Source: Planctomycetota bacterium | GTDB taxonomy: Bacteria; Planctomycetota; Planctomycetia; Pirellulales; PLA5 | DNA length: 64,000 bases | Assembly: GCA_003576845.1 (NCBI GenBank) | Contig: QEVJ01000010.1 | Span: 706-64,705 of the forward strand | Direction: 5' to 3' | Shown: positions 32,612 through 50,794 of the stretch, piece by piece | How positions within the stretch are numbered: position 1 is the first letter of the stretch | Layout of the letters: every line of letters starts with the position of its first letter | The notes under the pieces: model-generated | What the model saw: only the letters and a program-made list of their open reading frames with translations | Database searches by the model: none | Told to the model about the DNA's origin: nothing | Translations under genes and position numbers: made by a program

Positions 32612-35284
32612 ATGTCGCGTAAACTAGGAATCCTGGCGGGCGTATTGGCGAGCGGCTTGGGCGTGGCCGCGATCGTGAATGCCCAAAACGCGCGCCAAAC
32701 GCGGACGCCGTCGCTTTCGGACCGCCTGAGCCAGATTCGCGATCAACTGGTCGGCGAAGACGACGGCGCGGACGAGTCGCGGGCTGCGCCGGCGACGAAT
32801 CAGCGCCCCCCGACGGATTGGTCGGCGGGCCGCAAGTTCGGCGCGCCGAGCCGGCCGCGGGTGGCCGAAGAGGAATTGCCGGCCGCTCCGCGACATAATG
32901 TCCCAGCGCCGGCATACGCGAACGAGAACCAGGCGCAACGCCGCGCGGGGAACTCGGCTGTCGCGCCGCGCACGGCGACGCCCAACCGAGCGGCAAGCGA
33001 GGCGCCTGCTCGCAAGCCCGCCAGCACCTACGCGCTTCGCCCCGATGCAACGCGCGAGCCGAACAACGGGGCGGTTGCCGAAAGGGCGCCGGTGGAATCG
33101 ACCGCCGCGCCGCCGGCGATGAGCATGCCGAACACATCAGCGCCCACCTTAGCGCCGCGGGCCGTTGCACCTGGCGTCGCGACGGACAGCCCGCTGCGAA
33201 ACCGCTTGCAGGCACTTCGCGAAGAGCGCTTCGACGAAGCCGTGAGCGGCGACTCCGATTTGACCGCCCGATCAGCGCCCGCGACCAAGGAATCTTTGGC
33301 GATCAAACCAGACACGACGACGGCCGCCGACGCACAGTGGCGTTCGGCCGCGCCGGCGACGAAAGTGGAAGCGCCCTCCGCCGAAACGCCAGCCGCACCG
33401 GCGACGGCTTCGCGGTATCGCGAGGATCGGCCCCTGGTCGCCAAGACGGATGCCGCCGCGGCGGATTCACCCGCGTCGTCGACACCGGCGACCGCCACGA
33501 CCAAGACGCCCGCGGCTCCTAGCGGCGCGGGCCGTTACGCTAACGACCGCGCAGGCTCCGCGCCGAATGCGTCGGCCGCGGAAAGCACGACGCGCGAAGC
33601 GCCCGCATACGTCGCTCGCCGCGACGCCGTTCGCCCGAGCTATCGCGAAATCGCTCCCGGCGCCGCGAAGTCCGTTGAGTCGCCAAAGTCGACGAACGGC
33701 GATCCGTCGGAGAGCGAGAAAGGGGCTTTGCTCGCCAGCAAGAGCCCGATCTTGAGCGTCAAGACGGTCGGCCCACGGACGGTGACCATTGGCAAACCGG
33801 CGAAGTACGAGTTGCTGCTGGAAAACAGCGGCGACGCAGCGGCGAACGAAGTGGTCGTGACGGTGAAGCTGCCCGCGTGGGCGCAAATCGAAGGCGCGCA
33901 AGCGACGGCGGGGGCGGCGAAGGTCGCCGGCAAGAAGGGCGAGGGCGAAGCGAACGACGGCCTGCAATGGCGGGTGAGCCGTCTCGACGCCGGCGGCAAA
34001 CAGCGGCTCGTCATGCACGTCGTGCCGAAGCAGAGCACGCCGTTTCAACTCGCCGTGCAGTGGACGTTCGAGCCGGAAGTGGCCAAGACGGTCGTCGAAG
34101 TGCAGGAGCCGAAGCTGCAAATCGCCCTCGACGGGCCGAAGGAAATGCTCTACGGCGCGAAGGAAGCATATCGCATCACGATCTCCAATCCGGGCACGGG
34201 CGACGCGGAGAACGTCGCCGTGTTGACCAGCGGCGCCTCGCCCGCCGAGGGCATGAACAAGCTCGCCGTGGGCACGCTGGCCGCCGGCGCGACGAAAACG
34301 CTCGAACTCCACATCGCCGCCACGCAGGCCGGCACGCTGCACATCGCCGCGAAGGCCACCGCCGACGGGAATCTTTCGTCGCAGGCGGCCGCGGACGTGC
34401 TCGTGCGGCGTGCGGCGCTCAAGCTCGCGGCCGGCGGGCCGAAAGCGAACTACGCGGGCACGCAGGCCGCTTATGAAGTTCGCGTGGCCAACCCGGGCAA
34501 CGCGACCGCGGAGAACGTCCGCGTGGAAGCGACGCTGCCGATCGGGGCGAAGTTCGACAAGTGCTCGGCCGGCGGCGCGCCCGCTTCGGACGGCACGAAA
34601 GTCGTCTGGACCGTGCCCTCGCTCGCGGCGGGCAGCGAACGGGCGTTCGAGCTGACCTGCACGCTGATGGCGGCCGGCGCGAATCGCTTGCAAGTCGCGG
34701 CGGCGGCGCAAGGCCAGCTTTCCGATACGGCCGAAGTCGCCACGCGGGTCGAAGCGCTCGCCGATCTGAAGATGGAAGTCGCCGATCCGCGCGGACCGGT
34801 CGCCGTCGGCGCGGACGCCGTGTATGAAGTCCGCATCCGCAACCGCGGCACGAAGACGGCCGAGCGGATCAACGTCGTCGGGTTCTTCTCCGAGGGCGTC
34901 GAACCAGTCTCGGCGACGGGCATCAAGTATACGATCGAGACGGGGCAAATCACGTTTGAGACAATCGACGCCCTCGATCCAAACGAGGAGTTGCTCGTGA
35001 AGGTCACCGCCCGGGCGTCGGCCGCCGGCAATCACCTGTTCCGGGCGGAACTCGTATGCGAGAGCACGGAAACGCGGCTGGTCGTCGAAGAGACGACGAA
35101 GTTCTACGCGGACGGGCCGGTCAAGCCGGCGGCGTATCTCGAAGAGGCCGGCGACGGCGGCGCGGAAGGCGCGGTCGAACACGCCGGCGGGGCGGCGGCG
35201 AGCGACGACGACGCGATGCCGGGTTTCATTCCGCCGGCCGACGGCGAAGACGAGTTGCAGCCGCTCAATTTGCTCGACAAATGA
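32612..35284 (+). CDS. Secreted protein: long Ala/Pro-rich low-complexity region followed by DUF11/CARDB-like repeat domains
   Basis: ATG 32612. N-terminus MSRKLGILAGVLASGLGVAAIVNA looks like a signal peptide. About 350 aa are A/P/S/T-rich. Repeated units follow, such as 'GPRTVTIGKPAKYELLLENSGDAAANEVVVTVKLP', 'YRITISNPGTGDAENVAV', 'YEVRVANPGNATAENVRV' and 'YEVRIRNRGTKTAERINV'. Confidence 0.8.
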   Translation: MSRKLGILAGVLASGLGVAAIVNAQNARQTRTPSLSDRLSQIRDQLVGEDDGADESRAAPATNQRPPTDWSAGRKFGAPSRPRVAEEELPAAPRHNVPAPAYANENQAQRRAGNSAVAPRTATPNRAASEAPARKPASTYALRPDATREPNNGAVAERAPVESTAAPPAMSMPNTSAPTLAPRAVAPGVATDSPLRNRLQALREERFDEAVSGDSDLTARSAPATKESLAIKPDTTTAADAQWRSAAPATKVEAPSAETPAAPATASRYREDRPLVAKTDAAAADSPASSTPATATTKTPAAPSGAGRYANDRAGSAPNASAAESTTREAPAYVARRDAVRPSYREIAPGAAKSVESPKSTNGDPSESEKGALLASKSPILSVKTVGPRTVTIGKPAKYELLLENSGDAAANEVVVTVKLPAWAQIEGAQATAGAAKVAGKKGEGEANDGLQWRVSRLDAGGKQRLVMHVVPKQSTPFQLAVQWTFEPEVAKTVVEVQEPKLQIALDGPKEMLYGAKEAYRITISNPGTGDAENVAVLTSGASPAEGMNKLAVGTLAAGATKTLELHIAATQAGTLHIAAKATADGNLSSQAAADVLVRRAALKLAAGGPKANYAGTQAAYEVRVANPGNATAENVRVEATLPIGAKFDKCSAGGAPASDGTKVVWTVPSLAAGSERAFELTCTLMAAGANRLQVAAAAQGQLSDTAEVATRVEALADLKMEVADPRGPVAVGADAVYEVRIRNRGTKTAERINVVGFFSEGVEPVSATGIKYTIETGQITFETIDALDPNEELLVKVTARASAAGNHLFRAELVCESTETRLVVEETTKFYADGPVKPAAYLEEAGDGGAEGAVEHAGGAAASDDDAMPGFIPPADGEDELQPLNLLDK

Positions 35285-35325
35285 CAACTGGGAATGGGCA
35301 AGTATCTGCGAACCTCAGCAATTGC

Positions 35326-36288
35326 TCATTCCTGCGAATCGAGATTGCCGAGTTCGCTCCCACGAGGCTGGTCAATCGCAAGCAGACGCCATTGGACGTC
35401 CTCGGTGCCGGTAGAGTACTTAATTGTCGTTATCTTCCGAAGCGTCGCCGTGCAGCGAGCGGGCAGTTGCACCCGGTGGTCCTCATCGATGATCTCTGGG
35501 TCAAATAATCCGCGGATCAGCGGAAGATTCTTTCGTTTGAGCTTGAACTTGCTCGTTTCCACGTCGGCGGCAATGAGCTTTCCTTCTACCGTGACCGTTT
35601 GTTCGGTTACGGTGCTTGTCTCGTCAATCACTTTCCTGAGATGTGCCAACTCTCGCGGCTGAACAAACAAGGTTCCCTTGACCCGGCCGCCATGCCGCCA
35701 TTCGATTTCTGCGCCCAAGCCGTTATTGGCGTTACCAGCAGCCCACTCATAAAGCGCATTTATCGGACCAGGGCCAAGCCGATGAGCATGGTGCAGAACT
35801 TCGGAAGGATTCTTTGACTTGCTCATCGAGAAAACCGTGCTGATTGTGTCATCAAGGCCGGTCTCGAAAAGTTCTTGCGCGTTTCGGATGGTGAGCATAA
35901 TTCCGACAGAACCGTGAAAGCCAAATCCGAAATCGAACGCGGTCTCTCTAGCTACATGCTCTGGAATTGTCGCTCGTTGCTTGTAACCATGTTGCAGCGC
36001 TCCGTAGACGACTGATATGAGCCGCTGGAATTCCGCGATTGCACCAAACGCGGCAGCAGCCTTCGGTCGCTCGTATTCATCAAACGCGCGATACTGGCAA
36101 ACGTCGTGGCCAATCATCGCGGCCGCTTCAACGAATTGCTCCCTCAGCTTTTCTTGCAATCTGACTGCAGAATCGAGGTTCGCCGATATCGAAGGTAGCT
36201 CTGGGTGCTCGGCGAGAGCGCGCTCAAGGTGCAATACGCGAGCATCGGCACTTTCGATTTGTTTCTGTATTTCGAGCAATTGACTCAT
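35326..36288 (-). CDS. Hypothetical 320-aa protein (N-terminal coiled coil), partner of the upstream nucleotidyltransferase gene
   Basis: ATG 36288-36286 overlaps the stop of the upstream gene (ATGA). About 52% GC, against ~70% in the flanks. I recognise no family. Contains 'KQRATIPEHV' (R-x5-H). Confidence 0.7.
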   Translation of the reverse strand: MSQLLEIQKQIESADARVLHLERALAEHPELPSISANLDSAVRLQEKLREQFVEAAAMIGHDVCQYRAFDEYERPKAAAAFGAIAEFQRLISVVYGALQHGYKQRATIPEHVARETAFDFGFGFHGSVGIMLTIRNAQELFETGLDDTISTVFSMSKSKNPSEVLHHAHRLGPGPINALYEWAAGNANNGLGAEIEWRHGGRVKGTLFVQPRELAHLRKVIDETSTVTEQTVTVEGKLIAADVETSKFKLKRKNLPLIRGLFDPEIIDEDHRVQLPARCTATLRKITTIKYSTGTEDVQWRLLAIDQPRGSELGNLDSQE

Positions 36289-36779
36289 GGCATCACCGCA
36301 GGAATGGTGATTGTGACGATTCCTTTCGCCACGCCTTTTCGACTCGTTCCAAAGAATCTCGTCCAGTAGTTTCGGTCGTTCTCACTGTCAGGGAACAGTG
36401 GGTGTCCCGAATCGTATTCTATCCATTTGTACGAGTCGCAGTTGTGGCTGTCGCGGCGTTCTTCCTGGGATGCCCAGTCTACTGCATCGCGAACGCGTCT
36501 GTCATTGTCGTATAAGGCCGACGAAACGCGAATGAGGATATCCACGTCCTCAGGATCGATCTTCTCCGTTACAAAACTTCCGTCCAGCCAAACCTCCCCA
36601 ACGACGCCGTTTCGGTTGAGCCGTTCCACCAATCCGCAGAGCCCATCCATGATGCCACGGCGCGTGAGCGACTGCGGGAACGCGACGACGAACCGATCCC
36701 GTGCCTCGGCCAAAGTCATCGCGTAGAATCCGCGACCAAAGATCGGCGGGTACTCAAACTTAATCGAATTGGCCCCCAT
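36285..36779 (-). CDS. Minimal Pol-beta-superfamily nucleotidyltransferase (MNT / DUF6932-like)
   Basis: 164 aa, ATG 36779-36777. 'GEVWLDGSFVTEKIDPEDVDILI' has the G-S ... D-x-D nucleotidyltransferase signature. C-terminal 'FFGTSRKGVAKGIVTI'. About 52% GC. Confidence 0.7.
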   Translation of the reverse strand: MGANSIKFEYPPIFGRGFYAMTLAEARDRFVVAFPQSLTRRGIMDGLCGLVERLNRNGVVGEVWLDGSFVTEKIDPEDVDILIRVSSALYDNDRRVRDAVDWASQEERRDSHNCDSYKWIEYDSGHPLFPDSENDRNYWTRFFGTSRKGVAKGIVTITIPAVMP

Positions 36780-36879
36780 AATGGGAGCATGGTAGTTGCG
36801 GTGCTACAGCCGAGTCAACGCTGAACCACGAAAATAAGCAGTCGAAGGCTCGGGCCCGAATTCGCAGTGTCAGCCCGAT

Positions 36880-39800
36880 TCACAGTTGTCTGGTGTCAAG
36901 TCGCTGAAGCAGCGGGCCGGTTGATCGGGCTCGGCGCGCGGCAAATAGGCGGACGGAGGTGAGCGAGTCATCGCCGCCGGTGGCGTTCAGAATGCCGCGG
37001 GTTAATGCCTGATCTATGGCGCTTGTTCCATCGAGCATTGCCCCGGCTCGCGTGCGCTCGGGATAACGACGGATTGCTCGTTCTCCACGTTCGGTTCTAA
37101 TGCGAGCGGTCCGCAAATCCGCGGTGAGTTCGACAACGATCGCCGCGGGCGATTGTGCGGGCGGCGATGGAGCGGGTTCGCCGTTGGGTAGCGTCAAACC
37201 GATGTGGTTCCGCGTCAGCACGGCGTCGACGACGTTGACTAGGCCATTGCCGTCGATGTCGGCGGTGAGCGAATAGCTCGGCGCGGACGCGGTGCGAAAC
37301 GCGGATTTGATCGCGTCGGTCACGTCGGCGAGCGTCGTGCTGCCGCTGGCGTTGTTGTCGCCGGGGAGGATATTGAAGCGGAGGACGAAATCGCCGCCGG
37401 GCGTGCCGTCGCCGGAAGGATACGCGCCGCTCAGATCGCCGTCGAGCGCGACGCCCGCGAGGTTCGTCACGCCGGAGAGCCGCGCGAGCATCCGGTCGAC
37501 GGGGAGATTGGCGGCGGTGGTCCACGTGGCGGTGTTCGTTGCCGGGTTGTACGCGAAACCGCCGTCGCCCGCGCCGTAGTCGCTCGACAACAAGCCGTAC
37601 AGCGCGAGATCGTTCGCGGTGACGTTGACCGGCTCGCTGAACGTGATGCTGATCTGGTCGACGTTGTTCCAGGGCAGCGTCGGGGCGGCAGAGTTGGTGG
37701 CGGCGTGCGGTAAATCGTATCCGCCCGTGCCGAGACCGTCGGCCGCCATGCGGGCGAGAAACTCGGACGTCCAGACGCTGCCGCGGACTTGCGCGCCGAC
37801 GACGGTGGGCGGCGCCACGGACGGGAGCGTATAGGAAACGAGCAGTAGCGGCCGTACGCCGGCTGTCGCGCCTTCGGCCGACGTAAACTCCATCCCGCTT
37901 CCCGCAGTGGCGTCCGAGATGATTAACCCGTTGTTCGGCGCGAGACCGGAAACCCAATCGCCGACGAGCGCCGTGCCCGCCGCGTTGAGCGGGAAGGCGA
38001 GCCGCGCGGGCACCGTGCCGCCGAAGCCGACGCTCGCGAGGACGGTCGTGCCGCGATCGGCCGCGCCGCGAGCGCCCGGCGTTTGCCAATTAACGCCGGT
38101 GGCGGCGACGTTGAAGGTCGCCTGGCTTTCGTTCCATGCGCGGAGGGCTTGGTAGGCCTCGTAGGTGTTCGTCGTGCTGTCGATGATGTTGAGCACCAGC
38201 GAGGCGCGTTGCACTTGCGCCTCGGCCGGAATCGGCGCGAGGTCCCAGCGGATCAGGCCGAGCTCTTCGAGCGGGTTCTGGCCGTCGATGCTGATGGCAT
38301 TGTCGGCGCCGTTCTGCTGGGTTGCGTTGTTCTCGTTTAGCCACGTGTCGGCCGTACCTGTATACGCCCCGCCCGATGAAACGCCGTCTTGCAATTGGGC
38401 GATGTAGAGCGTCTGGCTTTGGGTGCTTTCGGCATCGTCGGCGTTGCGGGCCGACACGCGATATTCGGCGATCGACGCGGCCGAGACACTTACGTCGGTG
38501 TACGTCGGCGTGGTCACCGTGGCGACGAGCGTGCCGCCGCGATAGACACGATAGTCCTTCACGCCGGATTCGGCATCGACGGACGGCGACCAGGAGAGGA
38601 CGAGATTGACGTTGCCGCCGGCGATTGCTTCGGCGACCGACAGACCCGTCGGCACGCTCGGCGGCGTCTGGTCCGTGCCGATCGAGACGGGATCGGATGG
38701 GGCACTTTCAAAGCCATCGCCGTTGACCGCCGACACGCGGTACGCATAGCGGACGCCGGGCGACGCCGTCGGATCGCTGAACGCGAACGTCGGCGACGTG
38801 CCGAGGAGCACGCCGTTGCGATAGACGTTGTAGTGGTTGACGCCCGACTGAGGGTCGGTCGAGGCGTCCCACGTGAGGTCGTTGTGCGTAGGCGACACGG
38901 GCGTGAGCTGCAAGTTCTGCGGAACACCGGGCGGGGTCGTGTCCAGCGTCACGCCCGGCGAGGGCTGTGCGAAGAACTGATACGCCGTGCCTCCGTCGGG
39001 AAAGACGCCCTGCGATTGGTCGAGCCGCTGCGGGCCGTAGATTACGTGGTCGAGCCGCGTCGCGCCGTCGGTTGAGAACAGGCCGATTTCGCCCTGCTCG
39101 TGCGCGAGGCGGAAGCTGACGTGATCCGCGCCGCGATCGACGTCCTCGTCGGCGGTGAAGACGGTCGGCGAAAGCGGGGCGACGAAACTGAGCGGGGCGA
39201 TCTCGAACTTCGTCCGGCCGGCGACGATATCGTCCGTCAAGTGCAAACCACCGAGCGCGACTGGAAGCGTATCGGCGTTGTACAACTCGATGAAATCATT
39301 GGTATGGGGTTCACCGCCGAGCACGTACTGGCCCGCGGTGAACCATTCGTTAATGTTGAGGTTGCGCGCGTCGCCGGTTTGCTGGGCGACGTTGGCCGCG
39401 CCGAACGACGGTTGGGCAAGGCCCCAGTCGCCGTTGTGTCCGAGCCGGGCGATCGAATAGTCGGCAATTTGCACGCCGAACTCGACGCTGTCGACGAGAT
39501 CGCCGCCCGCGGCCGGCGCGGCGAACAGGTATACGCCGTCGCCCTCGTTGGCCTTGAGGCCGAAGCCCACGTGAATTTCGCCCGACGCGCTGGGCAAGTC
39601 GTCGCCATGAAGCACGAGGTAGGCGAGAGCGGGAATCGACGTTCCGGCGGGAAACACGAACTTCCGCGGATTGTTCGGATTGTCGCTGATACTCATGTCC
39701 GACAGATCGAACGCCGCGGCGCCGGGATTGTAAAGCTCGATCAAGTCGGAAGTCGTGCCGAGCGTGCCGGTGGCGTTGCTCGCGAGGACTTCGCTGAGCT

Positions 39801-46063: not shown

Positions 46064-46442
46064 CCCAATTCCCAATGTTGTCACTGCACCAGATACGGGA
46101 CGGCGCGTCGTGCGGCCGGCGTGCCGACGTTGGGTGGGGCTTTCCGAACCCCCGCGTGAGGCAACCGCAAGCTCGCTGCGTAGGGAAATGACCGATACAG
46201 ACGGCACGGTTTCCTTCATCGTAATTGGTTCGCAACGGAATCGTCAACTATTTCGAGCAAAAAGCGTGCGAAAAACCGTTGACTCTGGTTTTTCGAACAG
46301 ACTTCGCGCTGTCTCGGTAGCCGGGTGTCCTTTTCACAGTCGCGAGGTTCGTTGTTGCTTTATTGGGCGACCGGTAGAATCGACGCGACGGCGGGCACAG
46401 CGTCCTCCGTGCGGCAAGTCAAATCTTGGAGGAAGTCGGGCC

Positions 46443-46943
46443 ATGAAATCACTTGGATTTGCGATCATCGGTCTGGCGTTGGTCAGCAGCGTGCCGGTGA
46501 CCGCCGTCGCGGCCGACGACGCGCCCTCGAAGGAAGCGGTGGTCGGAACCTGGGACGGCAAGGTCGAAGTCGACCTCGATCTGCTCAAGTCCGACGAGCG
46601 GTTTGGAAAACTTTCCGCCGAACAAGCTGAAACCTTGCTCCGTGTGCTCAAGGACACGCTTACCAAGACGACGATGAGCATCACCTTTGCCGCCGACGGG
46701 AAGGCTACCGGCGAGCTCAACGGGCCGGGGATTGCGGCCAAGGATCGTCCCAAAAAAGGCACGTGGACGATCGACGGCGGTGCGATCAAGGTCAAGGCGG
46801 CGACCAAGGATGACGCCAACAAGGAGTCGCAACGCGACATGGTGTTTACGTGGGTCGACGCGAAGACGATGACGATGGGTTTCCCGGCGAAGGACGGCAA
46901 GGAATGGCCCAAGGGGATCGCGTTCAAATTCACGAAGAAATAG
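46443..46943 (+). CDS. Small secreted protein (lipocalin-like beta-rich, hypothetical)
   Basis: ATG 46443. N-terminus MKSLGFAIIGLALVSSVPVTAVAA looks like a signal peptide. 'VVGTWDGKVEVD' and 'GTWTIDGGAIKVKA' are beta-strand motifs. 166 aa. Confidence 0.65.
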   Translation: MKSLGFAIIGLALVSSVPVTAVAADDAPSKEAVVGTWDGKVEVDLDLLKSDERFGKLSAEQAETLLRVLKDTLTKTTMSITFAADGKATGELNGPGIAAKDRPKKGTWTIDGGAIKVKAATKDDANKESQRDMVFTWVDAKTMTMGFPAKDGKEWPKGIAFKFTKK

Positions 46944-47005: not shown

Positions 47006-47033
47006 TTGACGGTTTAGTGTTTTTTTGTATAGT
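47006..47033 (+). promoter_or_regulatory. Near-consensus sigma70-type promoter upstream of the DUF488 operon
   Basis: TTGACG (47006-47011), a 16-nt T-rich spacer, then TATAGT (47028-47033). It sits in a local AT-rich patch, 67 nt before ATG 47100. Confidence 0.45.
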
Positions 47034-47099
47034 TATCCAGGTGCGAGCGAATGTGCCGCGCCGGACGTGAGGGACGGTAACTTTTTTGCGAGCCACGCG

Positions 47100-47735
47100 A
47101 TGGACGCGCAGCCGACGTTGCCCAACGCGAACCGCGAGCGACTCCCGGGGGAGATTCTTTCCGTCGGGCACTCGAACCACGCGACCGACGCGTTTATCGC
47201 CCTGTTGTGGCGGCACGGGGTGGAGGTGCTGTGCGACGTCCGCTCGCATCCGGCGTCAGCATACGCGCATCAGTTCAACGAGCCGCAGCTTCGCGCCGAC
47301 CTGGAAGCGGCTGGACTGCGCTACCTGTTCCTGGGGCACCAGTTGGGCGGCCGGCCCGTCGGCGACGAGTATTACGACGACGCGGGGCACGTTTGCTATG
47401 ACCGGTTGGCCGAATCGGCCGAGTTCTTAGCGGGGATCAAGCGCATCGAGCGCGAGGCGGCGGTGCGCCGCGTCGCGATGATGTGCAGCGAGGAAGACCC
47501 CGCCGGTTGTCATCGCCGGCTGCTCGTGGCCCGCGTGTTGGAAGCACGCGGCGTCGCGGTGCGGCACGTGCGGGCCGACGGCCGCGTGCAGACGGAGGCC
47601 GACGTGGTCGCCGAGGAGGTGCAACGTAAGCTAGGGAGTCAGCGGACTTTGTTCGACGTCGTCGAGGCCGCGCCGTGGAAGTCTATACGATCGGTTTTAC
47701 CCAAACGTCGGCAGCGGACTTTTTCGGCCGATTGA
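47100..47735 (+). CDS. DUF488-family protein (long form)
   Basis: ATG 47100. 'ILSVGHSNH' is the N-terminal motif, and 'MMCSEEDPAGCHRRLLVARVL' is the C-x-E-x5-CHR DUF488 hallmark. 211 aa. The tail overlaps the next gene by 61 nt. Confidence 0.7.
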   Translation: MDAQPTLPNANRERLPGEILSVGHSNHATDAFIALLWRHGVEVLCDVRSHPASAYAHQFNEPQLRADLEAAGLRYLFLGHQLGGRPVGDEYYDDAGHVCYDRLAESAEFLAGIKRIEREAAVRRVAMMCSEEDPAGCHRRLLVARVLEARGVAVRHVRADGRVQTEADVVAEEVQRKLGSQRTLFDVVEAAPWKSIRSVLPKRRQRTFSAD

Positions 47736-48112
47736 GGTCGGCCGGAGTGCGGCGGCTCGTCGACGTGCGGCTCAATAACTCGTCGCAATTGGCGGCGTTC
47801 GCCAAGCGCGACGACCTGGGCTTTTTCCTCCGCGAACTTTGCGGCGCAGACTACGTTCACGAGCCGCTGTTGGCCCCCACGCAAGACATGCTCGACGCCT
47901 ACAAAAAGCAGCGCGGCGATTGGGCCGAGTACGAGCGGCGATACCTCGACTTGCTCTGCGTGCGAAAGGTCGAGACGCAGCTTGGGCGCGACTTATTCGC
48001 CGGGCCGACCGTGTTGTTGTGCAGCGAAGCCGAGGCGACGCATTGTCATCGCCGCTTGGCGCTCGATTATCTCAAGGAGTTTTGGCGCGACATGGAGGCG
48101 AAACACCTGTAG
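47675..48112 (+). CDS. DUF488-family protein (short form)
   Basis: GTG 47675. '(M)EVYTIGFTQT' and 'LLCSEAEATHCHRRLALDYL'. 145 aa. Confidence 0.7.
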   Translation: MEVYTIGFTQTSAADFFGRLRSAGVRRLVDVRLNNSSQLAAFAKRDDLGFFLRELCGADYVHEPLLAPTQDMLDAYKKQRGDWAEYERRYLDLLCVRKVETQLGRDLFAGPTVLLCSEAEATHCHRRLALDYLKEFWRDMEAKHL

Positions 48113-48193
48113 GGGAAAGTTTCAAGGCTCAAGGTTCAAGTCTCGAAAAGCGCGTTGAAGGTGCTGCGAGCGGGACCGTTAGGGAGCGAGGTC

Positions 48194-49042
48194 ATGACGG
48201 CGATCGATCTCGTGTGTCTGGCCAATTCGCGGAAGCATGGCGGACGGTGCGTCGCGGGGTGGCGGCCCGACGGCGCCGGTTTCGTGCGGCTCGTGTCGCC
48301 GCTGGCCGATGGCACGCTCACGCCGATCGACCTGCGGCTCGGCGGCGGCGTCGACGGTGGCGCTGGCGGCGGCGACGAACCGCGGATGTTCGACTTGCTT
48401 CGCGTGGGAGTCTCTGCGCCGCGGCCGATGCCGCATCAGCGCGAGAATTGGGTGATCGACGAGTCGCCGTGGCGGCTGTTGCGGCGGCCCGCTCCGCGAG
48501 CGATGCTCGAACGCCTCGCGCCTTGGTTCGAGCGGGGACCCGCCATTCTCGGCAGCAAACGTCCCGCGATCCCCTACGACGATTGCGTGCGGTCGCCCGT
48601 GGCGGCGTCGCTCGCCGTCGCCAAAGTCGAGCGGACCGTTCTCGTTGTCGGCGAGCGCCTCGGCCGCAAGCGATTGCGGCTGCGCTTCGCGCTCCGCGGC
48701 GCGGCGTATGAGTTGACGGTTACGGATCCGCTTTGGGAACGGGCGGTCGAGCGCTGGGAATGCGGTGAGTACGCGTGGTGGAAGATGTTCCCGCGGGGAC
48801 GCGATCCCGTCGTGACGCTGAGTCTGACGGAGCCGTTCGGCGACGCCCGCGAGTGTTTTAAGATCGTCGCGACGCTCTGGCCGGCTCCGGAGATGCGCGG
48901 ATTCCGCTGGCCGAAGCCGCGGGTCGATCGCCGAAAAGCCGGCCGCACGGTCGTTGCGGCACGCACGCGGCGCGACGATTCGGCCGCGCGGCCGCTGCTG
49001 GTTGGCGAAACGGCGTCGCGAGGCAGGATCAAACCGAGGTGA
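48194..49042 (+). CDS. Conserved hypothetical protein, third gene of the DUF488 operon (possibly a dual-OB-fold type protein; weak recollection)
   Basis: ATG 48194 preceded by AGGGAG (48181-48186). N-terminal 'LVCLANSRKHGGRCVAGW' motif. 282 aa. Confidence 0.6.
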   Translation: MTAIDLVCLANSRKHGGRCVAGWRPDGAGFVRLVSPLADGTLTPIDLRLGGGVDGGAGGGDEPRMFDLLRVGVSAPRPMPHQRENWVIDESPWRLLRRPAPRAMLERLAPWFERGPAILGSKRPAIPYDDCVRSPVAASLAVAKVERTVLVVGERLGRKRLRLRFALRGAAYELTVTDPLWERAVERWECGEYAWWKMFPRGRDPVVTLSLTEPFGDARECFKIVATLWPAPEMRGFRWPKPRVDRRKAGRTVVAARTRRDDSAARPLLVGETASRGRIKPR

Positions 49043-49105
49043 TGCAAGTCAACTCGCGGTGACGCCGAGTGGTGTGCTTTCGCAGGGCCCGTTAGCAATG
49101 CTGCC

Positions 49106-49741
49106 TTAGCGTGTCAGGTGCTTCGCCGCGTGAGCGCGGATTTCCTCGGCCACCGAGTCGACGGATTGCGACGCATCGACGACGACGATCTTGGCGTTGC
49201 GTCGAGCTTCGGCGAGAAAACCTTCTCGCAGTTTGCGGCGATAATCGCCGCCCCGTTTTTCGAGCCGGTCGGCGGTCCCGGCACGCCGCGCGTCCGCGGC
49301 ATCGCTGTCCATGTCGAGCAGGAACGTAAGCGTCGGCTCGACGTCTGCGGTGGCGATGCGACCGACGCGCCACAGTTCGTCGACATCGAGCCCGCCGGCG
49401 TGCCCTTGATAGACGACGTTGGCCAGGAGAAAGCGATCGGAGACGACGATTTTGCCCGCCGCGAGCGCGGGTGCGATCACTTCGGCGACGAGTTGTGCGC
49501 GGGCGGCCATGTAAAGGAGCATCTCGGCCCGCGGGGCGAGCGGAATCTCTTCGCGATGCAGCAGGATGTCGCGAATCGCCTCGCCGAGCGGCGTGCTGCC
49601 GGGATCGCGGCACGGCACCACGTCGCAGCCCGACGCGCGTAGCCAGGCGACGAACCGCTCGATCTGCGTCGACTTGCCGACGCCGTCGATGCCGTCGAAC
49701 GAGAAGAACGGCGAATCCGGCATTGCGGAGAGAGAGCTCAT
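49106..49741 (-). CDS. tmk: Thymidylate (dTMP) kinase
   Basis: 'FFSFDGIDGVGKSTQ' P-loop, 'RDPGSTPLGE', 'DRFLLANVVYQG'. ATG at 49741-49739, with an alternative ATG at 49723. Confidence 0.85.
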   Translation of the reverse strand: MSSLSAMPDSPFFSFDGIDGVGKSTQIERFVAWLRASGCDVVPCRDPGSTPLGEAIRDILLHREEIPLAPRAEMLLYMAARAQLVAEVIAPALAAGKIVVSDRFLLANVVYQGHAGGLDVDELWRVGRIATADVEPTLTFLLDMDSDAADARRAGTADRLEKRGGDYRRKLREGFLAEARRNAKIVVVDASQSVDSVAEEIRAHAAKHLTR

Positions 49742-49798
49742 GCCGCGATTCTATCGGCGGTTGGCATTCGAGCGAAGTGCCAGGACGCGGAAGGGCGG

Positions 49799-50794
49799 CT
49801 ATTTGCCGCGTTTATACCGGGCGAGCATGCGTTTGGCGCGAGCGACGACGATCTCCGCGAGTTCCGGCGGTTCGAGCACGAGGGCCTGATCGCCGTAGCC
49901 GAGAACCCACCAGGAAACCTCGCCCAAGCCGGAGACGTTTACCTGAAAGTCGAGCGACCCGTCGGCGTTCCACGCGAGGCGCTGCGTCTTGTGCCACGCG
50001 ACGTCGGCGACGTTGCGGGCGACGAGCTTGCTGAAGCGAATCGAGACGCGGCGGTTGGGTCCGCGTTCGGGGATCATGTGCCAGGCGTTGCGAAGGTAGC
50101 GTTCGAGGTTGAAGCCGCGCGGAATCTGATACCCGTCGTCGAGTTGCACGAGCGACAGAATTCGTCCGAGGTGAAACGTTCGCGTCGCGCGATGAAGCGA
50201 CGACCGACCGATGACGTACCACGCCCGTCGGCTGAACCAAAGCCGATAGGGGCTGAGCTTCGTCGCGATTTGCTTCCGCTCGGTAAAGCTGTCGTAGCGA
50301 ATCCGCACGGCGCGGCGGCGGGCGATCGCGTCGACCAACTGTTGGTAGGTTGCACGTTGCGACGCGAGGTCCGTCTCGTCAACGGCGGCGGCCAGCGGAC
50401 CGAGGCGAATATGAATCGCCCGGGTCATGCGCGCGAGCTGTTCGCGGAGGGCTGCGGGCAGGCTACTTTCGAGCTTGGCGGCCGCGCTCTTCGCCGCGTC
50501 GAAAAAGGCGACCTGTGCCCGGTGGCCGACTTCGTGGCAGAGAACGATAACGGCGAGGGCCTCTTCGGTCGTGAAGTTAGTGGGGGGCAGGTAAAAGGTG
50601 CCGGGGATGCGAAACCGCTCTTCGGAGACGTCGTAGTGCAGGGGCACGCCCGCATCGCGGAGCAAATCCAGATCGCGGAAGATCGTGCGGCGGCTTACGC
50701 GGCAGAGATCGGACAAAGCTCGCGCGTTATGCCCCCGGCCCGTCTGCAAATGGCCGAGCAACTGCAGCAGTCTTCGGATTCGGACCAGGTGCAT
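49799..50794 (-). CDS. HTH + WYL-domain transcriptional regulator (YafY-like)
   Basis: 'RLLQLLGHLQTGRGHNARALSDLCRVSRRTIFRDLDLLRDAGVPL' is the HTH. 'LSPYRLWFSRRAWYVIG' is the WYL-domain core. ATG at 50794-50792. Confidence 0.8.
   Translation of the reverse strand: MHLVRIRRLLQLLGHLQTGRGHNARALSDLCRVSRRTIFRDLDLLRDAGVPLHYDVSEERFRIPGTFYLPPTNFTTEEALAVIVLCHEVGHRAQVAFFDAAKSAAAKLESSLPAALREQLARMTRAIHIRLGPLAAAVDETDLASQRATYQQLVDAIARRRAVRIRYDSFTERKQIATKLSPYRLWFSRRAWYVIGRSSLHRATRTFHLGRILSLVQLDDGYQIPRGFNLERYLRNAWHMIPERGPNRRVSIRFSKLVARNVADVAWHKTQRLAWNADGSLDFQVNVSGLGEVSWWVLGYGDQALVLEPPELAEIVVARAKRMLARYKRGK

What the first reader, a model, noticed from the sequence alone, without database searches (positions are those of the whole stretch)
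35326..36779. Low-GC, ATGA-coupled two-gene cassette: minimal nucleotidyltransferase plus an unrecognisable 320-aa partner (candidate TA/abortive-infection-type system)
Two minus-strand genes sit between the 3' end of the giant surface-protein gene and the convergent DUF11 gene. Hand-counted 60-nt lines give about 52% GC here, against about 70% in both flanks, so foreign origin is likely. The first gene (164 aa) carries a minimal Pol-beta nucleotidyltransferase signature, 'WLDGSFVTEKIDPEDVDILI' (G-S ... D-x-D), and a C-terminal 'KGIVTI'. I associate this with MNT/DUF6932-like proteins. Its stop overlaps the start of the second gene (ATGA at 36285-36288), which implies translational coupling. 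The second protein has an N-terminal coiled coil, a mixed middle region and a beta-rich C-terminus, and I cannot assign it to any family. It has one R-x5-H string (RATIPEH), but that is not enough to call it HEPN. Small NTases paired with a partner of unknown fold are the architecture of MNT-HEPN toxin-antitoxin and AbiE-like systems. A non-HEPN partner would be a new pairing.
Basis: partly seen in the sequence, partly recalled or inferred. Interest (0 to 1): 0.7.

Follow-up and report, generated by a model that had tools for sequence, protein, structure and literature searches.

The report
Mobile nucleotidyltransferase two-gene cassette (PDC-M63)
This is a real, horizontally acquired two-gene operon (a small nucleotidyltransferase plus a 320-aa partner), but the pairing is already catalogued as the untested phage-defence candidate PDC-M63, so it is a divergent new member, not a new pairing.

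Summary
Two minus-strand genes, A (36285-36779, 164 aa) and B (35326-36288, 320 aa), overlap by ATGA and form the lowest-GC stretch of the window (54% against 65.5% in the flanks; GC3 0.57-0.66 against 0.81-0.83).

A is a DUF6932 protein. Its Pol-beta nucleotidyltransferase signature (G67-S68, D78-x-D80, D115) is invariant across the family. B has no Pfam family, but the pair is not new. Both proteins match the PADLOC candidate system PDC-M63 (A 7e-26, B 3e-13, both full length).

B's family has at least 1,366 clusters at 50% identity. A lies directly upstream of B in every independent locus examined, across four phyla and in phages. In lambdoid phages (mEpX1, vB_EhrS_59 and IMG/VR contigs) the pair follows the cI repressor gene, where lambda carries rexAB.

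Seven planctomycete-type cassettes carry their own promoter 8-9 nt before A's ATG, which implies a leaderless mRNA.

B is not HEPN. Its predicted fold is a coiled-coil hairpin, an unmatched alpha/beta domain and an OB-like barrel, with only a Gly-Ser turn invariant.

A defence role is plausible but unproven. The one published test, a deletion in E. coli NILS69, showed no phenotype. The mechanism is inferred only.

The parts
36789..36818 (-). Promoter-like element TTGACT-18 nt-TACCAT. It ends 9 nt before A's ATG and there is no Shine-Dalgarno sequence, which implies a leaderless or nearly leaderless mRNA.
   Evidence: Found by the promoter scan. The same architecture, TTGAnn-17/18-TAnnAT-8/9-ATG, precedes A in L001, L002, L009, L013, L098 and L099. 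The pattern occurs only once in the whole window on both strands.
36285..36779 (-). Gene A, 164 aa: a DUF6932 minimal nucleotidyltransferase (PADLOC PDC-M63A, phrog_9194).
   Evidence: Pfam PF22014 3.1e-24, with a weak NTP_transf_2 hit. PADLOC PDLC04744 6.9e-26. phrog_9194 3e-23. AF2 pLDDT 94. Best Foldseek PDB match is the putative NTase 2rff (E 0.016), followed by AadA, MNT antitoxins and Pol mu.
36540..36581 (-). NTase active-site motif G67-S68-x9-D78-x-D80. The third carboxylate, D115, is at 36435-36437.
   Evidence: R40, W64, G67, S68, K73, P76, D78, D80, D115, Y138 and K152 are identical in 19 of 19 family members, including the phage copies.
36285..36288 (-). ATGA stop/start overlap between A and B (translational coupling).
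   Evidence: Read directly from the sequence. A 4-nt overlap is conserved in 9 of 11 intact loci, including phages mEpX1 and vB_EhrS_59.
35326..36288 (-). Gene B, 320 aa: PDC-M63B family (related to phrog_6603), with no Pfam or NCBIfam family.
   Evidence: PADLOC PDLC04747 3.2e-13 over residues 1-305 of a 309-position profile, plus three further M63B models. 43 of 45 relatives hit M63B. An exhaustive profile search found 1,366 clusters at 50% identity with E<=1e-3, nearly all 305-320 aa. No PDB match by sequence.
36115..36282 (-). B residues 3-58: a predicted antiparallel helical hairpin (coiled coil), probably an oligomerisation element.
   Evidence: AF2 secondary structure shows helices H3-27 and H32-58 with pLDDT 80-90. 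The only sequence matches in the PDB are designed or natural coiled coils, at non-significant E-values.
35908..35913 (-). B G126-S127: the only residues invariant across the whole B family. They sit at a beta-hairpin turn.
   Evidence: 18 of 18 sequences including the phage members. The model places the turn between strands 119-124 and 128-135. A similar 'GS plus hydrophobic strand' motif was seen by eye in the partner proteins of distant A-like genes in L110, L111 and L113.
35371..35616 (-). B residues 225-306: a C-terminal five-stranded barrel resembling an OB fold, so a possible nucleic-acid-binding domain.
   Evidence: Foldseek PDB matches are IF1, SSB, RPA and Stn1/Ten1, with probability up to 0.97 and TM about 0.5 on the target, but E-values of only 0.05-0.5. 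SSB-like matches also appear in BFVD.
35285..36879 (.). Low-GC segment that exactly fills the space between the stop codons of the two convergent host genes. This is the presumed acquired unit (promoter plus A plus B).
35273..35312 (.). Left arm of an imperfect 40-nt inverted repeat. The right arm is at 36861-36900. Together they bracket the cassette. Meaning unexplained.
   Evidence: 70% complementary. Local alignment score z = 5.3 against shuffles, but no counterpart in nine other loci.

Best explanation
The cassette is a divergent planctomycete copy of the two-gene module that PADLOC lists as phage-defence candidate PDC-M63. It is a self-contained, horizontally mobile operon with three parts: its own promoter giving a leaderless mRNA, a DUF6932 minimal nucleotidyltransferase (A), and a translationally coupled partner of about 310-320 aa (B).

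Shown here: the family assignment, the intact NTase active site, the strict A-then-B pairing and co-divergence, the foreign composition, the mobility, and residence in the lysogeny modules of temperate phages.

Inferred: the module protects its carrier (a cell or a lysogen) against infecting phages, by analogy with other repressor-adjacent prophage genes such as lambda rexAB.

Inferred mechanism: A is the only enzyme of the pair. B has only a Gly-Ser turn and a few Arg, Trp and Gly residues conserved, and has a coiled-coil hairpin and an OB-like barrel. I take B to be a non-catalytic, oligomeric, nucleic-acid-binding partner that senses an infection cue and licenses A. A would then transfer a nucleotide onto a macromolecular target (an RNA or tRNA 3' end, or a protein), halting growth or phage replication. 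Because A needs B to act, loss of either gene would be harmless. This fits the decayed copies found in nature.

The confidence of 0.5 is for the statement as a whole. Taken separately, the identity as a PDC-M63 member is about 0.95, an anti-phage role about 0.55, and the sensor-licensed-NTase mechanism about 0.3.
For: Family assignment:
- PADLOC M63A 6.9e-26 and M63B 3.2e-13, both full length; Pfam DUF6932 86.5 bits against a cut-off of 27.

A is an active enzyme:
- G67, S68, D78, D80 and D115, plus R40, K73, Y138 and K152, are identical in 19 of 19 members.
- The model has the NTase fold (pLDDT 94), and the best structural matches are minimal NTases.

B looks non-catalytic:
- Only G126 and S127 are invariant. 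There is no conserved acidic or histidine set.
- The C-terminal domain is OB-like and the N-terminus is a helical hairpin.

A and B are an obligate pair:
- A lies directly upstream of B in all 12 independent cellular loci and phage genomes that carry B, and in 9 of 9 strong A hits in IMG/VR.
- The 4-nt overlap is present in 9 of 11 intact loci.
- A and B identities co-vary (Mantel r 0.925, p 2e-4).

The cassette is mobile and foreign:
- Its GC is 5-17 points below the flanks in every host, and GC3 is 0.57-0.66 against 0.81-0.83.
- It sits at different loci in different Pirellulales.
- It lies next to an IS1595 transposase in three unrelated loci.
- Hosts span Planctomycetota, Nitrospirae, Dehalococcoidales and Enterobacteria, and it also occurs in a Streptococcus satellite phage.

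It carries its own promoter:
- TTGAnn-17/18-TAnnAT-8/9-ATG precedes A in seven loci and is unique in the window.

Defence-type context:
- In mEpX1, vB_EhrS_59 and IMG/VR contigs L105, L107 and L110 the pair follows the cI-like repressor gene, the slot of lambda rexAB.
- In L109 it lies between the repressor and HicAB plus an integrase. In L098 it lies next to an AAA_15/21 ATPase plus DUF4276.

Not an addictive toxin-antitoxin pair:
- L001 has a nonsense codon in A with B intact.
- L009/L010 have a frameshift in B with A intact.
- L100 has B split by an IS element with A intact.
- Phage MissE1 carries A without B.
Against: - No member of the family has been shown to defend against phage. Deleting the prophage-borne PDC-M63AB in E. 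coli NILS69 changed nothing against 10 phages (PMC12409345).
- In the window the neighbours are a surface-protein gene, FTR and FtsK, not a defence island. The nearest defence-like cluster is about 10 kb away.
- The OB assignment rests on Foldseek E-values of 0.05-0.5, and A's structural matches are also weak (best E 0.016).
- The sensor/effector split between B and A is inference from conservation patterns and a few decayed copies. Some of those copies could be assembly errors, or copies in which both genes are silent.
- No A:B complex model, ligand or target was obtained.
Confidence: 0.5

Rival explanations
1. Type VII toxin-antitoxin logic, as in MntA/HepT. B is a growth-inhibiting protein that acts by binding nucleic acid rather than cleaving it. 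A keeps B inactive by nucleotidylylating it, for instance on the invariant Ser127 or the near-invariant Tyr66. Infection stops this neutralisation.
For: - A resembles MNT antitoxins in size, motif and fold.
- The NTase gene comes first and is translationally coupled to its partner, as in MntA-HepT.
- MntA polyadenylylates HepT on a tyrosine (PMC7641770, listed; the residue is from my own knowledge).
- B has an invariant Ser in an exposed turn and a conserved Tyr66-Arg67 pair.
- B is disrupted with A intact in L009 and L100, and A stands alone in MissE1, as expected if B is the toxic part.
Against: - L001 has a premature stop in A, before D115, with an intact B. That should be lethal if B were a toxin held in check by A.
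- B has no HEPN motif or fold and no conserved catalytic residues.
- No toxicity data exist.
Confidence: 0.2
2. A is the toxin: a MenT/AbiEii-like NTase that blocks translation by adding nucleotides to tRNA. B is its protein antitoxin, inactivated on infection.
For: - NTase toxins of this kind exist (AbiEii, MenT; from my own knowledge).
- A's active site is invariant.
- B's OB-like domain could mimic or hold an RNA substrate.
Against: - A has no match to the AbiEii/DUF1814 family, only DUF6932, and is half the size of those toxins.
- In those systems the NTase gene is the downstream gene; here it is upstream.
- A is intact while B is split by an IS element (L100) or frameshifted (L009). A also occurs without B in phage MissE1.
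Confidence: 0.08
3. The pair is not an immune system. It is an accessory module serving the mobile element itself, for example in lysogeny control, modification of the element's own nucleic acid or proteins, or counter-defence. In the planctomycete chromosome it is simply a hitch-hiking remnant.
For: - The only experimental test found no defence phenotype.
- The cassette is solitary in the window, away from known defence genes.
- Decayed copies in L001, L009 and L100 suggest weak selection in chromosomes.
- One B relative weakly matches an ocr-like anti-restriction PHROG (1 of 45, 2e-4).
Against: - Both genes are intact in the window with all invariant residues present.
- The family is large and its length is conserved.
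- The repressor-adjacent slot is expressed in lysogens and typically holds exclusion genes such as rexAB; BstA is another example (PMC8585504, listed; its position is from my own knowledge).
- The pair also occurs in chromosomes with no prophage around it.
Confidence: 0.15
4. The pair is made of native housekeeping genes whose low GC reflects amino-acid composition or expression level, not foreign origin.
For: The same locus arrangement is seen in three other assemblies, but they come from the same organism (100% identical proteins).
Against: - GC3 is 16-25 points below that of the neighbouring genes.
- The same GC deficit appears in every host.
- Genomic positions differ between Pirellulales.
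- The pair is absent from 80 loci of related planctomycetes found through their FTR orthologue, although synteny is not conserved there.
- It is present in phages and next to IS elements.
Confidence: 0.02

Closest known systems
PDC-M63 (PADLOC-DB v2 'phage defence candidate', genes M63A and M63B), e.g. phage mEpX1 gp42/gp41 and the prophage-borne PDC-M63AB of E. coli NILS69
   Same: The two families are the same, in the same order, with the same 4-nt overlap and the same sizes (about 160 and 310 aa). Both window proteins match the PADLOC HMMs over their full length.
   Different: The window copy is very divergent from the enterobacterial phage copies: about 28-30% identity for A, and B is not detectable by tblastn. 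It sits in a planctomycete chromosome with no prophage around it, and it carries a leaderless-type promoter instead of being read from the cI operon. PDC-M63 itself is an unpublished, unvalidated candidate.
MntA/HepT (MNT-HEPN) type VII toxin-antitoxin systems
   Same: A small Pol-beta NTase with GS...DxD is encoded first and is translationally coupled to a second protein. MNT antitoxin structures are among A's fold matches.
   Different: The partner is not HEPN. It has no conserved Rx4-6H motif and no all-helical fold, and it is 320 aa with a coiled coil, an alpha/beta domain and an OB-like barrel. A belongs to DUF6932, not NTP_transf_2 (E 0.0087, below the cut-off). It also has an N-terminal extension of about 40 residues containing the invariant R40.
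AbiE (AbiEi/AbiEii) and MenA/MenT NTase toxin systems
   Same: These are two-gene modules built around a Pol-beta-fold NTase and linked to abortive infection or growth arrest.
   Different: There is no match to the AbiEii/DUF1814 family. No wHTH AbiEi-like partner was found (no Pfam family for B). The NTase is upstream and about half the size. Copies with the partner destroyed but A intact exist.
Lambda RexA/RexB exclusion system
   Same: In lambdoid phages the M63 pair occupies the same slot, immediately downstream of cI and before N. It is therefore presumably expressed in lysogens.
   Different: There is no sequence relationship: hhalign probability is below 1% for B against RexA and for A against RexB. 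By inspection of the sequence (not a formal test) I saw no RexB-like membrane component.
CBASS / CD-NTase signalling systems
   Same: An NTase-fold enzyme paired with a second protein in a mobile module. CdnC appears among the weak fold matches.
   Different: A is far smaller than CD-NTases and has no SMODS/CD-NTase family hit. B has no recognised nucleotide-sensor or effector domain.

Membership tests
PDC-M63 (PADLOC candidate system) | A protein matching a PDC-M63A HMM | tested here: met
   PDLC04744, E 6.9e-26, residues 7-159 on profile positions 3-149 of 152.
PDC-M63 (PADLOC candidate system) | A protein matching a PDC-M63B HMM | tested here: met
   PDLC04747, E 3.2e-13, residues 1-305 on profile positions 1-308 of 309, plus PDLC04749, 04748 and 04751.
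PDC-M63 (PADLOC candidate system) | The two genes are adjacent on the same strand | tested here: met
   They overlap by 4 nt at 36285-36288.
PDC-M63 (PADLOC candidate system) | Anti-phage activity | not testable with these tools
   The only published test, a deletion in E. coli NILS69, showed no phenotype against 10 phages.
DUF6932 (Pfam PF22014) | Score above the Pfam gathering cut-off | tested here: met
   86.5 bits against a cut-off of 27.
Pol-beta superfamily nucleotidyltransferase | hG[GS]-x9-13-Dh[DE]h motif plus a third carboxylate | tested here: met
   G67-S68-x9-D78-V-D80 and D115, all identical in 19 of 19 members.
Pol-beta superfamily nucleotidyltransferase | NTase alpha/beta fold | tested here: inconclusive
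   The model is confident (pLDDT 94). The best PDB matches are NTases (2rff, AadA, MNT, Pol mu, ANT(4')), but with E-values of 0.016-0.3 and TM 0.3-0.45.
MNT-HEPN (MntA/HepT) type VII TA | Partner protein with a HEPN fold and a conserved Rx4-6H motif | tested here: not met
   R105 and H111 are not conserved, and H111 is present in only 2 of 30 close relatives. The fold is mixed alpha/beta plus a barrel. There are no HEPN matches in Pfam, PADLOC or Foldseek.
MNT-HEPN (MntA/HepT) type VII TA | The NTase belongs to the MNT family (NTP_transf_2 / Polbeta) | tested here: not met
   NTP_transf_2 scores 16.9 bits against a cut-off of 21. Polbeta scores 11.9 against 26.9.
MNT-HEPN (MntA/HepT) type VII TA | The NTase covalently modifies its partner | not testable with these tools
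   This needs mass spectrometry of co-expressed proteins.
AbiE / MenAT | AbiEii/DUF1814-type NTase toxin and AbiEi-type wHTH antitoxin | tested here: not met
   No such Pfam, NCBIfam or PADLOC matches for either protein.
Lambda RexAB | Homology to RexA and RexB | tested here: not met
   hhalign probability 0.2% and 0.5%.
Classical toxin-antitoxin pair (addiction) | One partner cannot be lost while the other stays functional | tested here: inconclusive
   Natural copies exist with A broken and B intact (L001) and with B broken and A intact (L009, L100). This argues against addiction, but expression and sequencing accuracy are unknown.

The most novel reading that the evidence does not exclude
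PDC-M63 would be a mechanistically new class of NTase-based immunity. A non-enzymatic coiled-coil/OB-fold protein with no solved relative senses phage nucleic acid and switches on a minimal DUF6932 nucleotidyltransferase. The logic would differ from type VII toxin-antitoxin pairs, AbiE/MenT and CBASS. The leaderless promoter would let the same 1.5-kb unit work across phyla, from E. coli prophages to Planctomycetes.
Probability: 0.3. Interest if true: 0.7.

Novelty: new member of a known kind. Interest (0 to 1): 0.38.

Why it matters
The pair is widespread: at least 1,366 clusters at 50% identity for B, found in several bacterial phyla, temperate phages and a satellite. It occupies the classic exclusion-gene slot next to the repressor gene in lambdoid phages. 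Yet neither protein has a known function, B has no solved structural relative, and the only experiment so far was negative.

This work adds several testable points:
- A is the only partner with an enzyme-like conserved site.
- B has a single invariant Gly-Ser turn and an OB-like domain.
- Both single-gene losses occur in nature.
- The planctomycete-type cassettes carry a conserved leaderless promoter.

For the window itself, the finding is a routine horizontally acquired accessory cassette.

Tried and rejected
- HEPN partner: rejected. The motif is not conserved and the fold is wrong.
- Sequence matches of A or B to solved structures: none.
- NCBIfam: no match for either protein.
- Pfam for B and for 45 plus 9 relatives: only scattered noise, and no DUF6575.
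- tblastn of B against the phage and plasmid collections: nothing, because B is too divergent. The link to phages came through A and the PADLOC and PHROG profiles instead.
- The BFVD match of B to a 'DUF6575 domain-containing protein' (E 9e-12). DUF6575 occurs in one validated E. coli PD system (PMC9519451). I could not find out which system, nor confirm the link by sequence, so it stays a lead only.
- Empty-site test. A metagenome scan using the neighbouring FTR gene returned 80 related loci without the cassette. None kept the DUF11 or FtsK neighbours either, so the test is uninformative.
- Flanking repeats as insertion scars. No direct repeats were found. An imperfect 40-nt inverted repeat brackets the cassette in the window (z 5.3) but not in nine other loci.
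- Rfam scan of 34-38 kb: no RNA family.
- RexA/RexB homology: none.
It was redone with the A alignment.
- Look-up of the 277-aa database version of B: not on record.
Full report
**1. Observation**

A runs from 36285 to 36779 (164 aa) and B from 35326 to 36288 (320 aa). They overlap by ATGA at 36285-36288.

They lie between the stop codon of a 3001-aa surface-protein gene (36880) and the stop of a convergent 890-aa gene with PF01345 (DUF11/CLIPPER) hits (35284).

The GC dip is real. The cassette is 54.3% GC against 65.5% in the 5-kb flanks. It is the lowest-GC 1.45-kb stretch of the window (z = -4.3). Third-position GC is 0.655 for A and 0.573 for B, against 0.81-0.83 in four neighbouring genes.

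**2. What the proteins are**

A scores 86.5 bits on Pfam DUF6932, where the cut-off is 27. It has only sub-threshold hits to NTP_transf_2 and Polbeta.

Across 19 family members, including the phage copies, these residues are identical: R40, W64, G67, S68, K73, P76, D78, D80, D115, Y138 and K152. This is the hG[GS]-x9-DxD signature plus the third carboxylate of Pol-beta-type nucleotidyltransferases.

The AlphaFold2 model of A is confident (pLDDT 94). Its best PDB matches are a Sulfolobus putative NTase (2rff), AadA, MNT antitoxins, Pol mu and ANT(4'). The E-values are weak, 0.016-0.3.

B has no family in Pfam or NCBIfam and no sequence relative in the PDB.

The model of B (pLDDT 86, pTM 0.81) has three parts:
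- a helical hairpin at residues 3-58;
- an alpha/beta region at residues 61-222;
- a five-stranded barrel at residues 225-306.

No PDB structure matches the whole protein. The barrel resembles OB folds such as IF1, SSB, RPA and Stn1/Ten1, with probability up to 0.97 but E-values of 0.05-0.5.

**3. The pairing is already catalogued**

Both proteins match PADLOC-DB models of one candidate system, PDC-M63. A matches M63A at 6.9e-26. B matches M63B at 3.2e-13 over its full length, plus three further M63B models. Of 45 B relatives, 43 also hit M63B.

PHROGs holds both families: phrog_9194 for A (3e-23) and phrog_6603 for 24 of 45 B relatives.

PDC systems are PADLOC's unpublished, unvalidated candidates.

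The only paper in the library that names PDC-M63 deleted a prophage-borne PDC-M63AB in E. coli NILS69. It found no effect on ten phages, and it notes that the system had never been verified experimentally (PMC12409345). No paper in the library mentions DUF6932.

**4. Distribution and linkage**

An exhaustive profile search found 1,366 clusters at 50% identity for B with E<=1e-3, and 430 with E<=1e-30. Nearly all are 305-320 aa and align end to end. Every source name seen is 'hypothetical protein'.

A lies immediately upstream of B in every independent locus recovered. These cover:
- Planctomycetota and Pirellulales (window, L001, L002, L009, L013, L098, L099);
- other metagenome contigs of unassigned origin (L011, and L100, where B is split by an IS element);
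- Nitrospirae (L003);
- Dehalococcoidales (L004);
- E. coli phage mEpX1, Erwinia phage vB_EhrS_59 and the Streptococcus satellite Javan304;
- 9 of 9 strong A hits in IMG/VR.

The 4-nt overlap is kept in 9 of 11 intact loci. Pairwise identities of A and B co-vary tightly (Mantel r 0.925, p 2e-4).

More distant A-like NTases in viral contigs (L110, L111, L113) are also followed by partners of 278-346 aa. By eye these partners carry a 'GS plus hydrophobic strand' motif.

**5. Mobility**

The cassette is 5-17 GC points below its flanks in every host.

Its position differs between Pirellulales. In two MAGs it lies between dnaE and an epimerase gene (L008, L009). In the window it lies between the giant gene and the DUF11 gene. 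In other loci it lies next to IS1595 transposases (L011, L098, L099).

Seven planctomycete-type cassettes share the architecture TTGAnn-17/18-TAnnAT, followed 8-9 nt later by A's ATG, with no Shine-Dalgarno sequence. That pattern occurs once in the whole window on both strands. The unit therefore brings its own promoter and most likely makes a leaderless mRNA. The transcription start has not been mapped; this is an inference.

An empty-site comparison failed, because no sufficiently close relative with conserved synteny was found.

**6. Context that bears on function**

In mEpX1 and vB_EhrS_59 the pair sits directly after the cI repressor gene and before N. In lambda this interval holds rexA-rexB. 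The same repressor-then-A-then-B order is seen in IMG/VR contigs L105, L107 and L110.

Other contexts are also typical of accessory genes in prophages:
- L109 has the pair between the repressor gene and HicAB plus an integrase.
- L108 has it next to an ImmA-like gene and an integrase.
- L103 and L106 place it at other moron sites.

The mEpX1 allele is present in 18 of 5,426 complete E. coli genomes at 99% identity or more.

RexA and RexB are not homologous to B or A, so the analogy is positional only.

In the window itself there is no prophage or defence island within 10 kb.

**7. Mechanism (inferred)**

A is the only partner with an enzyme-like invariant site. Family-wide, B keeps only G126-S127 at a hairpin turn, and nearly keeps R67, G236, W197, G172 and L48. 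This pattern is typical of a scaffold or sensor, not a nuclease.

Decayed copies exist in both directions:
- A has an in-frame stop before D115, with B intact (L001).
- B is frameshifted (L009 and L010) or split by an IS element (L100), with A intact.
- Phage MissE1 carries A without B.

These anecdotes fit poorly with an addictive toxin-antitoxin pair in either direction. They fit better with a two-component module in which neither protein is harmful alone.

My preferred model is that B, oligomerised through its hairpin and binding nucleic acid through its OB-like barrel, senses infection and licenses A's nucleotidyl transfer to a macromolecular target. The main rival is MntA/HepT-like neutralisation of B by A, with Ser127 or Tyr66 as acceptor. 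Neither model can be decided with the tools available here.

**8. Verdict**

The NTase assignment, the foreign origin, the translational coupling and the non-HEPN partner are all correct.

The pairing is not new: it is PADLOC candidate PDC-M63. The toxin-antitoxin or defence function remains unproven.

The window copy is a divergent new member of a known but uncharacterised kind. Interest is moderate, because the family is large, sits at the rexAB slot and has no known mechanism. It is not a surprise for a specialist who runs PADLOC.

Noticed in passing
window 47025-50794: Beyond the giant gene lies a cluster of five genes: two DUF488 genes (one of the 'active DUF488-N3a' subclade), a DuOB dual-OB-domain protein, a thymidylate-kinase-like gene and an HTH_11-WYL-WCX regulator. 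It looks like a WYL-regulated, nucleotide- or DNA-centred conflict system, about 10 kb from the cassette.
   Followed up: partly
window 46110-46943 (+): A 277-aa ORF with low GC (0.59; GC3 0.67) and no Pfam match, just upstream of the giant gene's start. This area holds the second-lowest-GC stretch of the window.
   Followed up: no
window 35273-35312 and 36861-36900: An imperfect 40-nt inverted repeat (70% complementary, z 5.3 against shuffles) brackets the cassette. Its arms overlap the last codons of the DUF11 gene and of the giant gene. Nothing comparable is found in nine other cassette loci. It could be the two halves of an old bidirectional terminator, or element ends.
   Followed up: partly
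L011 10956-11921; L098 9464-10435; L099 10547-11524: An IS1595-family transposase gene lies within 0.03-3 kb of the A-B cassette in three unrelated contigs. It may be the vehicle that moves the cassette.
   Followed up: no
L100 6402-9307: B is split by a DDE_Tnp_1 insertion sequence. Residues 1-149 lie before it and residues 145-306 after it. A remains intact.
   Followed up: yes
L001 9510-10003; L009 10001-10960: At the shared dnaE/epimerase locus of two planctomycete MAGs the cassette is decaying. A has an in-frame TGA at codon 108 in L001. By eye, the downstream sequence of L009 suggests that B is frameshifted near residue 286; the same 289-aa product is seen in an independent assembly, L010.
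   Followed up: yes
L098 7545-9332: Next to one A-B cassette sits an AAA_15/AAA_21/SMC_N ATPase with a DUF4276 protein. On the other side lies an HSP70-like gene with two unknown genes. The neighbourhood looks like a defence island.
   Followed up: no
window 35326-36288: The public gene call for B (P0001, 277 aa) starts at an internal TTG (codon 44). The full-length ATG start that overlaps A's stop is supported by homologues of 305-324 aa aligning from residue 1.
   Followed up: yes
L016 3938-4969 (Streptococcus phage MissE1): Here a DUF6932 gene stands without a B partner. It is followed by a 55-aa ORF and an ImmA/IrrE peptidase gene and preceded by a RelE/ParE toxin gene, all in the lysogeny module.
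   Followed up: partly
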